This document shows positions 12,001 through 15,000 of a stretch of DNA of 16,685 bases, piece after piece. The position numbers are program-made. The stretch lies in the UHGV virus genome UHGV-0176901. One strand, given 5' to 3'. Source of the DNA: a virus. Within the stretch, counting starts at the first letter, position 1. The number at the start of each line of letters is the position of its first letter.

Positions 12001-15000
12001 AGTGCCAGGCGGAAGGCTTGGAATAAAAATCACCGAACTGGAGAACGTATGAACGCCACAATTCAAACGATACCAGAGCTTCTTATCCAGACACGAGGCA
12101 ATCAGACCGAAGTGGCAAGGATGCTTTCCTGTGCAAGAGGAACAGTGCTCAAGTACAACCGAGACAGCAAAGGTGAGCGTCACGTAATAGTTAACGGCGT
12201 CCTGATGGTCAAACAGGGCAAGAGAGGAAGACGATGAGACTCGAAAGCATAGCTAAATTTCATTCGCCAACATGAGTAAATCGATGAGTAAGAAAAGGCC
12301 CCGAAAGGGGCTTTTTATCGTGACGATAAAGAACCTGATTTGAACGATATGAATGTTGGAAGTTAAATACAGTTACACCAACAAGAGAGAGGAATGTATG
12401 AGCAGTTTAATTAACGCTGCAGAAGTGCAAACCATGTCCAGCCGTGAGATTGCGGAACTGACAGGTAAACAGCATGGGCATGTGTGCAGAGATATAAGAG
12501 TTATGTTGTCAGAGTTAGGAATCTCTGAGCAATCCAAAATTGGATTTGTCGAGAGAATTAATAACTTAGGGCATGCCGTCAAAGATAAAGTCTACTTGTT
12601 GAACAAGGAAGAATCTCTCTGCCTTGTAGCTGGGTACAGCGCTGCTCTGCGTATGAAAATAATTAATCGCTGGCAAGAGCTGGAAGAACAAGAAAGTAAA
12701 CCGGCATTTCCTGTCCCCCAAACTTATCTTGAGGCGCTCAAGGCGCTGGTGGTAGCAGAGGAAGAGAAAGAGCGCCTTGCACTGGAGAACAAGGAAATGA
12801 GTCCTAAAGCCGAGGTTTACGACCGCATCGTTGAGCGCAACAATCTTTATAACGCGTCGCAGGTGGCGCAGAAGTTCGGGCAATCCGCCGTGTGGCTGAA
12901 TAAACAGCTTGAGCAATTAGGGGTATACAATCGTTCAGTTAAGCGTGGGCGCGTCTTCCAGCAATGGTTTATCGACAAAGGCTACGGCATCATGCGCGAG
13001 ACTAATAATGGACACTCTCAGGCGATGTTCTACGCCGAAGGGGAGATGTGGATTGTCGGCAAACTGACTGATGAGGGGTTGATATGAGCAAGCGAAAGAA
13101 GAAAGCACCTGTGAGGACAGAGACTAAATTCACCAGATACATTCCACAGCAATTCCCAGACGCATTTAAACCATCAGAGATGTTGTCTGATGCTGAATGG
13201 TGGGGTGTCGCAAGAATCGTAATTCGCTTGAGAAGAATCGCTTAAGATTCAAAAATGATGGAGGCATATGGAATGAGCATAAGAGAACTAAACCTCACAA
13301 AAGATCAGCATGAGTGGCTGAATGGATGGCTTGAACTGTGGGGCGCATGGGTTTATTCAGGTCGTCTGGAAAAGCGCATGAGCAGCGTAATAGCGAAGCT
13401 CATGGAGAGCGTAGAGCCGGGAAGGGTTATGACAAGGCCAATGTGTAATGATGATGATGGAATGTTGATTTCTCAGGTCGTCGATTCCGTCATGTACATT
13501 GACAAGAAAGCCTTTGGCATCCTCCTCAGCTACTACGCTCATGGATCTTCCAAACACGCCATTGCATCTTACTATCATCGCGTCGCAAGACCTCGCAAGA
13601 TGTTATGCCGGGGCGGCGGGCGCATTCAAAAACCATCGCTCGCAACCTGTCGACGGGAAGTTGACGAAATCCTTAATGCCTCGTTGTTTATGATTTACCC
13701 GGTTCTGGATAGTGCGTTTAAAAACCGGAAACGTGTAGAGAAAATTAAACATGTAGCATAGAACGTGTTGACATCATTGAGCAAATGAGCAACACTATTC
13801 GCATAAGCTGCCGTTAGTGACTCTTAAGTTGCAACGGTGGCTTTTTTTATTTGGGTCAGTCGTATAAAGGTCATTACGGAAGGCTGTTAACCTTCTTAAA
13901 CCAGCACCATAACTGAGCCGTAGCCACTGGCTATCCTGAATTCATCAGTGATAGTTACGCTGCGGCCTTCTACACATGACCTTCGTGAACGCGGGGGGCA
14001 TGAGGTTGCACTAACAACCTCCTGCCGTTTTGCCCGTGCATATCGGTCACGAACAAATCTGATTACTAAACACAGTAGCCTGGATTTGTTCTATCAGCAA
14101 TCGACCTTATTCCTAATTAAATAGAGCAAATCCTCTCAATGAGGGGGGGGTATGTACCGTATTAACAAAATCAGAGAATGGTTCAGTTACAGCTTCGGAG
14201 GGCTGACTGCGATGGGTGGCGTTTTCTCCCTGAATGACTGGGCTGTCATCATTGGTATTCTTTGCACTGTTGGCACATTTGGCATCAACTGGTACTACAA
14301 GCGCAAAGAGCGCGAGGATAGATTGAATGGCAATGTCACCGACACTACGAAATAGCGTAATAGCGGCGATAAGTGGCGGGGCTATTGCTATAGCATCTGT
14401 GTTAATCACTGGACCGAGTGGTAACGATGGTCTGGAAGGTGTCAGCTACATACCATACAAAGATATTGTTGGTGTATGGACCGTATGTCACGGACACACC
14501 GGAAAAGACATCATGCTCGGTAAAACGTATACCGAAGCAGAATGCAAAGCCCTCCTGAATAAAGACCTCGCCACGGTCGCCAGACAAATTAACCCGTACA
14601 TCAAAGTCGATATACCGGAAACAACGCGCGGCGCTCTTTACTCGTTCGTCTACAACGTGGGTGCAGGTAATTTCAGAACATCGACTCTTCTTCGCAAAAT
14701 AAACCAGGGCGATATCAAAGGCGCATGTGATCAGCTACGGCGCTGGACATACGCTGGCGGTAAGCAATGGAAAGGGCTGATGACTCGTCGTGAGATTGAG
14801 CGTGAAGTCTGTTTGTGGGGGCAGCAATGAGCAGGTTAACCGCGATTATCTCAGCTCTGGTTATCTGCATCATCGTCTGCCTGTCGTGGGCGGTCAATCA
14901 TTACCGTGATAACGCCATCGCCTACAAAGAGCAGCGCGATAAGGCCGCATCCACAATCGCTGACATGCAGAAGCGTCAACGTGATGTAGCAGAACTTGAC

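What the first reader, a model, noticed from the sequence alone, without database searches (positions are those of the whole stretch)
12234..12320. Thirteen-codon remnant of a lambda-type Q gene marks a late-regulation module swap
Directly after ninH, where lambda has Q, an ATG overlapping the ninH stop encodes MRLESIAKFHSPT and then stops, which matches the first codons of lambda-type Q. It is followed by a strong terminator, an antirepressor gene, a small ORF, and then an intact Q of a different (82/933W-like) family at 13273..13761. This is a clear mosaic junction showing replacement of the late antiterminator module.
Basis: partly seen in the sequence, partly recalled or inferred. Interest (0 to 1): 0.55.

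Follow-up and report, generated by a model that had tools for sequence, protein, structure and literature searches.

The report
Dead stub of lambda-type Q gene
A 13-codon leftover of a lambda-type late-gene switch (Q) sits after ninH where a foreign gene cassette was spliced in, and a complete phage-21-type Q downstream now does the job; this is an ordinary recombination scar of a well-known kind.

Summary
Window 12234..12270 matches the first 37 nt of lambda/HK620 Q at 36 of 37 positions. It starts in the same ATGA overlap with the ninH stop, and the ORF reads MRLESIAKFHSPT*. Homology to every ninH-Q(lambda) phage and E. coli prophage examined stops at 12270.

From about 12275 the sequence is a different tile: the last five codons of a foreign gene, an intrinsic terminator, a conserved 5' flank and a Rha/KilAC gene. 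Its nearest relatives (75-81% DNA identity) are in Jerseyvirus-type Salmonella phages. A 53-codon ORF follows, then an intact Q.

The Q is phage 21 Q (159/162 aa, Pfam PF06530). Its pR', Q-binding element, pause element and terminator are 100% identical to phage 21. It is not 82-like; 933W Q is only a distant member of the same Pfam family.

The same junction occurs unchanged in 10 metagenome samples. It is absent from sequenced phage isolates, 5,426 E. coli genomes, GTDB representatives and IMG/VR.

I read the stub as a non-functional scar of a non-homologous join. Phage 21 itself carries an annotated ninH stub of the same kind. Interest is low.

Side observation: this P22-like lineage lacks cI and integrase and has a truncated cII.

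The parts
12049..12237 (+). ninH (62 aa), last gene of the HK620/HK97-like nin tile
   Evidence: Pfam PF06322 at 2e-24. 96-98% DNA identity to ninH of HK620, HK97, mEpX2 and others.
12234..12275 (+). 13-codon stub of a lambda-family Q gene. Homology covers 12234-12270. Codon 13 and the TGA stop are created at the junction.
   Evidence: 36/37 nt identical to lambda and HK620 Q 5' end. Translations. Homology ends at 12270 in the phage records and the E. coli genomes.
12275..12291 (+). 3' remnant (about the last 5 codons plus the TAA stop at 12289-12291, with a 1-nt deletion) of the gene that precedes the Rha/KilAC gene in Jerseyvirus-type phages (FSL SP-101 gp19-like)
   Evidence: Alignment with FSL SP-101 and SP580. 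BLAST homology starts at query 11-16, which is window 12275-12280. Annotation of gp19/gp18.
12293..12318 (.). Intrinsic terminator: stem GGCCCC/GGGGC(U), GAAA loop, flanking A-tract and U-tract (TTTTTAT). It also looks like a terminator on the minus strand.
   Evidence: Fold -18.3 kcal/mol, z = -3.8. Flagged by the scan at 12298-12311. The same hairpin sits after gp19 in Jerseyvirus-type phages, with a longer U-tract.
12312..12397 (+). Conserved 5' flank of the Rha/KilAC gene. It includes the 33-nt motif TTTTTATCG-N3-CGATAAAGAACCTGATTTGAA (12312-12344) and a weak promoter-like TTGAAC-17 nt-TTAAAT. Its function is not established.
   Evidence: About 90% identical to Jerseyvirus-type phages, higher than the coding region. 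The core is conserved in more distant phages. A second copy lies at 808-776 on the minus strand, at 94% (I5). It did not pass the sigma-70 scan.
12398..13087 (+). Rha-N + KilAC ('anti-repressor-like') gene, 229 aa
   Evidence: PF09669 and PF03374. phrog_63 at 5e-57. 76% aa identity to FSL SP-101 gp18. The exact protein is on 12 metagenome contigs.
13084..13245 (+). orf53, a small ORF overlapping the Rha/KilAC stop (ATGA); unknown function
   Evidence: phrog_17117 at 4.5e-11. No tblastn match in the phage collection. Always found directly upstream of a Q21-family gene on the contigs that carry it.
13273..13761 (+). Intact Q antiterminator of the phage 21 type (162 aa), with RBS GGAGG at 13261-13265
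   Evidence: 159/162 aa identical to phage 21 Q. PDB 6JNX/6P18 at about 1e-107 over the full length. PF06530 at 83 bits against a cut-off of 26. Homology to phage 21 and CUS-3 begins exactly at the ATG.
13585..13598 (-). CII-binding site (TTGC-N6-TTGC) of the antisense promoter paQ inside Q21, conserved although this phage has only a truncated cII
   Evidence: Position transferred from the phage 21 annotation with an offset of 12072. The sequence was read.
13768..13810 (+). Phage-21-type late promoter pR': -35 TTGACA at 13768-13773, Q-binding element ATTGAGCA/AATGAGCA at 13776-13791, -10 at 13791-13796, start site at 13803, sigma-dependent pause element at 13804-13810
   Evidence: 100% identical to phage 21 over this stretch. 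Element positions come from the OL657228.1 annotation.
13805..13852 (+). Late-operon terminator (tR' of phage 21), the target of Q21 read-through
   Evidence: 100% identical to phage 21. Annotated as a terminator in OL657228.1.
13853..13971 (+). End of the phage-21 tile. The tRNA-Asn/tRNA-Thr pair is collapsed by a 99-nt deletion between 13898 and 13899, and no tRNA is left.
   Evidence: Alignment with phage 21. ARAGORN finds no tRNA. The phage 21 match ends at 13971.

Best explanation
12234..12275 is the dead 5' stub of a lambda-family Q gene. A nin region of the HK620/HK97 type (ninH overlapping the Q start as ATGA) was joined by non-homologous recombination, 37 nt into Q, to a foreign tile. 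Only about 4 nt (12271-12274) cannot be assigned to either side.

The foreign tile starts with the last codons of another gene. It then carries that gene's intrinsic terminator, a conserved 5' flank and a Rha/KilAC gene. The nearest known relatives of this cassette are in Jerseyvirus-type Salmonella phages.

Late-gene control is supplied further downstream by an intact phage 21 Q, inherited as one tile with its own pR' promoter, Q-binding element, pause element and terminator. Q21 loads onto RNA polymerase paused at pR' and makes it read through that terminator. This mechanism is established for Q21 and is inferred here from near-identity.

The stub has no role of its own. At most, ribosomes leaving ninH reinitiate at the overlapping ATG, make a 13-residue peptide and stop 20 nt before the terminator hairpin. 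Early transcripts are inferred to pass the terminator because the phage keeps an N antiterminator.

Shown: the homology breakpoints, the identity of each tile, the intact Q21 and its sites, and recurrence of the junction. Inferred: the order of events, that Q(lambda) and Q21 were exchanged in one step, read-through of the terminator, and whether the cassette has its own promoter.
For: - Stub: 36/37 nt identity to the lambda/HK620 Q start, in register with the ninH stop, with no match in shuffles.
- Breakpoint: homology stops at 12270 in 37 phage records and in the 36 matching E. coli genomes.
- Scarless comparison: phages and prophages with ninH followed directly by a Q21-family gene (CUS-3, HK75, many E. 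coli prophages) have no such stub, and homology there ends at the ninH stop.
- Right side: homologous to Jerseyvirus-type gp19 3' end, terminator and ant gene from about 12275 onwards.
- Q21: 159/162 aa to phage 21 Q, PDB Q21 structures at 1e-107, PF06530. pR', QBE, SDPE and terminator are 100% identical to phage 21.
- Not an assembly error: the exact junction is in 10 separate metagenome samples built with different assemblers, at 5x to about 1000x coverage.
- Precedent: phage 21 has an annotated stub of 10 ninH codons fused to 7 other codons just upstream of Q21.
- Same genome: a second scar of the same type, a 41-codon cII stub at 4336..4461.
- General background: non-homologous and homeologous recombination are the proposed sources of lambdoid mosaicism (PMC2327257).
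Against: - No donor carrying 'gp19-like gene, terminator, Rha/KilAC, orf53, Q21' was found. The closest cassette is only 75-81% identical. The direction and number of events are therefore inferred.
- All copies of the junction are identical, so there is no sequence variation from which to judge whether the stub is under selection.
- The same stub is linked to two different Q21-family alleles. The stub therefore does not by itself date the Q exchange.
- Terminator strength and read-through were not measured.
Confidence: 0.88

Rival explanations
1. The 13-codon ORF is a working leader peptide. Its translation, coupled to ninH, would control the terminator 20 nt downstream in an attenuation-like way and so set the level of Rha/KilAC and Q21 expression.
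For: The ATGA overlap with ninH allows reinitiation. A strong hairpin with a U-tract follows closely.
Against: The stop codon (12273-12275) lies 18-22 nt upstream of the stem, outside the reach of a terminating ribosome. Folding 12200-12400 shows no competing anti-terminator structure, and the overall z-score is only -1.4. The ORF sequence is simply that of Q(lambda). The terminator is inherited from the donor, where it follows an unrelated gene. There is no Rfam match.
Confidence: 0.03
2. The first 37 nt of Q(lambda) are a conserved boundary or linker sequence used repeatedly for homologous module exchange. On this view the segment is a recombination hotspot rather than a one-off scar.
For: Boundary sequences are annotated around Q in CUS-3. 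The ninH-Q overlap is highly conserved among lambda-type phages.
Against: A search for the Q 5' segment followed by any non-lambda base found only this one junction in JGI metagenome contigs, plus three unrelated chance hits. It found none in IMG/VR. ninH-Q21 phages lack the segment. The CUS-3 boundary sequences lie downstream of Q, not at its 5' end.
Confidence: 0.04
3. The junction is an assembly chimera that joins two co-occurring phages.
For: The window is a metagenome contig. Related contigs do break at repeats elsewhere in the genome.
Against: The identical junction is found in 10 samples built with SPAdes, MEGAHIT and Logan, including contigs of about 40 kb at 72x to 414x (ERZ1034773, ERZ1034882, ERZ19634781) and a 36-kb contig at about 1000x. 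No repeat spans the breakpoint.
Confidence: 0.01

Closest known systems
ninH stub upstream of Q in phage 21 (OL657228.1, CPT_21_62: '10 N-term ninH codons fused to 7 other codons')
   Same: A very short N-terminal gene fragment left in frame at an off-boundary mosaic junction in the nin-Q region, next to a Q21 module.
   Different: There the truncated gene is ninH and the stub abuts Q21 directly. Here ninH is whole, the truncated gene is a lambda-family Q, and a terminator, a Rha/KilAC gene and orf53 lie between the stub and Q21.
ninH-Q junction of HK620, HK97, HK022 and the mEp phages (lambda-family Q, PF03589)
   Same: Identical ATGA overlap and identical first 37 nt (one mismatch). The ninH tile is 96-98% identical.
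   Different: Those phages have the full 207-aa Q and a lambda-type pR'/qut. The window has 12 matching codons and no lambda-type qut.
ninH-Q21-family junction of CUS-3, HK75 and many E. coli prophages
   Same: The same ninH tile is followed by a PF06530 Q.
   Different: The exchange point is exactly at the gene boundary (ATGA), with no stub and no inserted cassette.
Phage 21 late-control module (Q21, pR', QBE, SDPE, tR'; structures 6P18, 6JNX)
   Same: Q is 98% identical and the regulatory DNA is 100% identical.
   Different: The two tRNA genes after tR' are collapsed by a 99-nt deletion. The upstream neighbour is orf53 rather than the ninH stub.
Morons of lambdoid phages (Hendrix/Juhala concept; from my own knowledge) and the gp19, terminator, Ant unit of Jerseyvirus FSL SP-101
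   Same: An extra gene with its own conserved flank is inserted between two genes that are adjacent in relatives. The cassette is 75-81% identical to the Jerseyvirus unit.
   Different: The terminator lies upstream of the gene, not downstream. A promoter is not demonstrated. The insertion cut a gene rather than falling between genes.

Membership tests
Lambda-family Q antiterminator (Pfam PF03589): is the stub a member? | Sequence homology to the Q(lambda) N-terminus | tested here: met
   11 of the first 12 residues and 36/37 nt are identical to lambda and HK620 Q.
Lambda-family Q antiterminator (Pfam PF03589): is the stub a member? | Presence of the Q(lambda) core domain (PF03589 region, residues about 113-199 of 207) | tested here: not met
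   The ORF stops after 13 codons. The PF03589 match in lambda Q lies at residues 113-199. No further lambda Q homology exists in the window.
Lambda-family Q antiterminator (Pfam PF03589): is the stub a member? | Cognate lambda-type pR'/qut downstream | tested here: not met
   The only late promoter found is the phage-21 type, 100% identical to phage 21.
Q21 family (Pfam PF06530): the gene at 13273..13761 | Profile match above the curated cut-off and full-length similarity to Q21 | tested here: met
   PF06530 at 83.4 bits against a cut-off of 26. 159/162 aa to phage 21 Q. 6JNX/6P18 at about 1e-107 over residues 1-162.
Q21 family (Pfam PF06530): the gene at 13273..13761 | Cognate Q-binding element between -35 and -10 of pR', plus a sigma-dependent pause element and a terminator | tested here: met
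   ATTGAGCA/AATGAGCA at 13776-13791, SDPE at 13804-13810 and the terminator at 13805-13852 are identical to phage 21.
Q21 family (Pfam PF06530): the gene at 13273..13761 | Antitermination activity | not testable with these tools
   Needs in vitro transcription or a reporter assay.
   No PF06323 hit at E <= 0.01. The family definition is taken from PMC9388147.
   Only 33% identity over 79 aa. Both proteins do fall in PF06530.
Intrinsic (Rho-independent) terminator | GC-rich hairpin directly followed by a U-tract | tested here: met
   5-6 GC pairs, a GAAA loop and TTTTTAT. Efficiency was not measured.
Moron (autonomous inserted transcription unit) | Inserted between genes that are adjacent in relatives | tested here: met
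   ninH is directly followed by Q in HK620 and CUS-3.
Moron (autonomous inserted transcription unit) | Own promoter upstream and own terminator downstream | tested here: inconclusive
   The conserved flank has TTGAAC-17 nt-TTAAAT, but this failed the sigma-70 scan. No terminator was found between the gene and Q21. The only terminator is upstream.
Rha/KilAC 'anti-repressor-like' proteins | Phage_pRha N-terminal domain and KilAC (ANT) C-terminal domain | tested here: met
   PF09669 at 3.9e-15 and PF03374 at 3.8e-10. phrog_63. Antirepressor activity is not testable here, and the lineage has no cI.
Leader-peptide attenuator | Alternative terminator/anti-terminator structures overlapped by the short ORF | tested here: not met
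   No competing structure was found, and the stop codon lies about 20 nt before the stem.

The most novel reading that the evidence does not exclude
The scar may be one of several marks of a previously temperate P22-like lambdoid lineage that now lives as an obligately lytic phage: no cI, a 41-codon cII stub, and no integrase.

This lineage collects Rha/ORF6N/KilAC cassettes, each preceded by a portable 5' flank shared with virulent Jerseyvirus-type phages. One such cassette, with its terminator, was placed directly upstream of Q21.

If the flank is a promoter, the cassette could rewire late-gene timing. The terminator would insulate Q21 from early transcription, and the flank would supply separate, possibly N-independent, transcription of Rha/KilAC, orf53 and Q21.
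Probability: 0.15. Interest if true: 0.45.

Novelty: new member of a known kind. Interest (0 to 1): 0.17.

Why it matters
On its own it matters little. It is a clean example of an off-boundary, non-homologous join in a lambdoid phage. It shows that the Q gene and its target site travel together as one tile of about 700 bp. It also shows that a cassette most similar to one from virulent Jerseyvirus-type phages can be spliced into the nin region.

It is useful for annotation: the 13-codon ORF should be marked as a pseudogene fragment, and the Q should be labelled Q21-type.

The wider context is of more interest than the stub. This is a repressor-less, integrase-less P22-like lineage seen in at least 10 metagenome samples and not found in the E. 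coli complete genomes or GTDB representative genomes searched.

Tried and rejected
- Exact 23-nt junction in GTDB species representatives and IMG/VR: no hits.
- Rha/KilAC protein in GTDB representatives: no relative found.
- orf53 in IMG/VR and in the phage collection: nothing. The donor therefore remains unknown.
- Independent junctions at the same Q position (pattern ending in a non-A base): none in IMG/VR. In JGI metagenome contigs, only this junction plus three chance hits in unrelated DNA. The 'reusable linker' idea was rejected.
- Attenuator idea: folding of 12200-12400 shows no alternative structure. Rejected.
- Rfam at the gathering threshold over the whole window: no family.
- tRNAs after pR': none called, explained by a 99-nt deletion.
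- Sigma-70 scan: nothing acceptable in 12312-12397, so the promoter idea stays open.
- The 21-nt core of the 5'-flank motif in IMG/VR: only the two Jerseyvirus-type contigs, so it is not a widespread element at the exact-match level.
- Base composition: only a mild GC dip at 12200-12700, not informative.
- One literature search (ninH / antiterminator Q / remnant) returned only irrelevant papers. PMC9836094 does not discuss Q.
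Full report
**Source.** The window is the ENA metagenome contig ERZ1034973 NODE_1092 (16,685 bp, about 120x coverage). It carries the early-left, immunity, replication, nin, late-control and lysis regions of a lambdoid phage. Longer relatives of about 40 kb have P22/Sf6-type virion genes: Sf6 terminase, P22 portal and coat, and a P22-type tailspike.

**The observation.** The ORF at 12234..12275 reads MRLESIAKFHSPT*. Lambda and HK620 Q start MRLESVAKFHSPK.
- Window 12234-12270 equals the first 37 nt of lambda Q with one mismatch, at 12249. It is the only such site in the window, and none of 200 shuffles produced a match.
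- The ATG overlaps the ninH stop as ATGA, as in HK620.
- With 12049-12420 as query, the 37 best phage records (HK620, HK97, HK022, mEpX1/2, HK140 and others) all align over query 1-222, that is up to window 12270, at 96-98%. All have a full-length Q there.
- With 12200-12400 against 5,426 complete E. coli genomes, 36 genomes match. All the listed matches stop at 12270, under an annotated ninH plus antitermination protein.
- Phages and prophages in which the same ninH is followed by a Q21-family gene (CUS-3, HK75, many E. coli prophages) lose homology at the ninH stop. They have no trace of the 37 nt.

The segment is therefore a true remnant of a lambda-family Q and not a general ninH flank.

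**What lies to the right of the breakpoint.** From about 12275 the sequence is homologous (75-81% DNA identity) to a unit found in Jerseyvirus-type Salmonella phages such as FSL SP-101 and SP580. The tile contains, in order:
- The last codons and TAA stop of the gene that precedes the ant-like gene in those phages (gp19). In the window this is 12275-12291, with a 1-nt deletion.
- That gene's terminator hairpin, GGCCCC-GAAA-GGGGC, followed by a U-tract (12293-12318). The fold is -18.3 kcal/mol with z = -3.8.
- An intergenic flank that is better conserved (about 90%) than the coding sequence.
- A 229-aa Rha-N/KilAC gene at 12398..13087 (PF09669 + PF03374, phrog_63). It is 76% identical in protein to FSL SP-101 gp18.

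Only about four bases (12271-12274) cannot be assigned to either parent, and I saw no useful microhomology. This fits a non-homologous join, one of the two routes proposed for lambdoid mosaicism (PMC2327257).

Downstream, orf53 (13084..13245) overlaps the Rha/KilAC stop. It has only a PHROG match of unknown function.

**The working late switch.** Homology to phage 21 begins exactly at the ATG at 13273 and runs to 13971.
- The 162-aa product is 159/162 identical to phage 21 Q.
- It matches the Q21 structures 6JNX and 6P18 at about 1e-107 over its full length.
- It falls in PF06530.
- The -35 element, the Q-binding element ATTGAGCA/AATGAGCA, the -10 element, the pause element and the terminator are 100% identical to phage 21. 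Their positions come from the annotated record OL657228.1.

According to PMC9388147 the three Q families are Q21 (PF06530), Q-lambda (PF03589) and Q82 (PF06323), with no sequence similarity between them. It is only loosely right for 933W: that Q is in PF06530 but is 33% identical over 79 aa.

The two tRNA genes that follow tR' in phage 21 are collapsed here by a 99-nt deletion.

**Is the junction real, and how common is it?**
- The exact 23-nt junction is present in contigs from 10 separate samples. These were assembled with different programs and at coverages from 5x to about 1000x.
- All copies are identical across 170 nt.
- It is absent from the phage isolate collection, 5,426 E. coli genomes, GTDB representatives and IMG/VR.
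- A search for any other junction at the same Q position found only this one.
- One carrier, L032, keeps ninH, the stub, the terminator and the flank 100% identical up to window 12404. After that it has a deleted Rha fragment, a Bro-N gene, an AntA/KilAC gene, orf53 and a 172-aa Q21-family allele that is 91% identical in DNA.

The scar is therefore tied to the cassette flank and has since been carried into at least two differently assembled genomes.

**Mechanism.** I read the stub as inert. It lacks the whole PF03589 domain and there is no lambda-type qut downstream.

An attenuator role is unlikely for three reasons:
- The stop codon lies about 20 nt before the hairpin.
- No competing structure appears.
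- The terminator is inherited from the donor, where it follows an unrelated gene.

Because a phage with only a truncated Q could not express late genes, the join probably brought in a downstream Q21-type module at the same time, with a second crossover further right. This is inference.

The phage keeps an N protein (PF25694) and the regions where nutL and nutR lie in its prophage relatives. Early transcripts are therefore expected to read through the new terminator, as lambda N does at tR2-tR4 (textbook knowledge, not tested here).

Whether the conserved flank (TTGAAC-17 nt-TTAAAT, plus the TTATCG-N3-CGATAA palindrome) is a promoter or operator is open. It failed the sigma-70 scan. A 94% identical copy sits upstream of another ant-like gene at 808-776 on the minus strand, too close to that gene's start codon to serve as its promoter.

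**Comparison with what is known.** The closest precedent is in phage 21 itself. There, an annotated pseudo-CDS of 10 ninH codons fused to 7 others lies just upstream of Q21. The same window holds a second scar of the same type, a 41-codon cII stub. The finding is a new instance of a familiar kind of mosaic scar, and I score its interest low.

**Side observations.**
- The interval between N and cro (3299-3977) has no cI and no oR/pR of the related E. coli prophages.
- That interval instead holds iteron-like repeats and a copy of the ori part of the O-like gene.
- The same structure, with the copy 95% rather than 100% identical, is present in an independently assembled 40.9-kb contig. It is therefore not an assembly artefact.
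- In the 40-kb relatives the pL operon runs straight into the tailspike gene without an integrase.

Together with the absence from the E. coli complete genomes and GTDB representative genomes searched, this points to an ex-temperate lineage that is now lytic. That context also removes the usual objection to an unregulated promoter upstream of Q.

Noticed in passing
window 3299-3977 (between N, 2828..3100 minus strand, and the cro-like gene 3980..4195): There is no cI repressor gene and no oR/pR homology where related E. coli prophages have cI (231 aa, HTH + S24 peptidase). The interval instead holds 23-nt iteron-like repeats (3461-3592) and a 238-nt exact copy (3510-3747 = 5043-5280) of the ori part of the O-like gene. 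The same architecture, with a 95% diverged copy, is in an independent 40.9-kb contig.
   Followed up: partly
window 4336..4461: A 41-codon stub of cII (MTQASYSKPTQREIDRAETDLLINLSTLTQRGLAKMIGCHE*) compared with the 98-aa CII of related prophages. This is a second off-boundary gene remnant in the same window. The CII-binding site of paQ inside Q21 (13585-13598) is nevertheless intact.
   Followed up: yes
L056, L057, L058, L060, L061 (about 40-kb relatives), downstream end of the pL operon: The early-left operon (N, CIII, Kil, ORF6N, Rha/KilAC, Rad52-like, SSB, Abc2-like and others) runs directly into the convergent P22-type tailspike gene. No integrase or excisionase gene is called. Together with the missing cI and truncated cII, this suggests an ex-temperate P22-like lineage that is now obligately lytic.
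   Followed up: partly
window 776-808 (minus strand) and 12312-12344 (plus strand): The 33-nt motif TTTTTATCG-N3-CGATAAAGAACCTGATTTGAA occurs twice (94%), each time just upstream of an ant-like gene: ORF6N at 750->442 on the minus strand, and Rha/KilAC at 12398. The palindrome half-sites are kept while the central 3 nt differ. A related core is conserved upstream of Rha/KilAC genes in Jerseyvirus-type and other phages. Its function is unknown.
   Followed up: partly
window 1-456 (minus strand): A second Rha/KilAC paralogue, cut by the contig end, lies in the pL operon. It is 80% identical to 12387-12495 and 98% identical to 12803-12860 of the gene next to the stub, so the KilAC part looks recently exchanged between the two copies (I2 and I4).
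   Followed up: no
window 13853-13971: The tRNA-Asn and tRNA-Thr genes that follow tR' in phage 21 are fused by a 99-nt deletion between 13898 and 13899. ARAGORN calls no tRNA. The same deletion is in the 40.9-kb relative.
   Followed up: yes
window 5656..8562: The 968-aa Toprim primase/helicase-like replication protein carries an intein-like insert (Hint plus LAGLIDADG homing-endonuclease matches at about residues 379-631).
   Followed up: no
window 4463-4951 and 10382..10636: There is a tandem 80% duplication of the HTH_36 N-terminal part of the O-like gene, giving an 84-aa ORF at 4489..4743 ahead of the 256-aa gene at 4778..5548. There is also an 84-aa ORF with only the first 27 positions of a Rha domain, overlapping the start of the Roi-like gene. 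These are possibly further truncation scars.
   Followed up: no
L032 (ERZ19693148, 36-kb contig) 749-3708: A second lineage has the identical ninH, Q stub, terminator and flank. It then has a 127-nt deletion in the Rha gene, an inserted Bro-N gene, a second copy of the flank (89.6%), an AntA/KilAC gene, orf53 and a 172-aa Q21-family Q. This indicates that the ninH-Q interval is a hotspot for shuffling of ant-type cassettes.
   Followed up: partly
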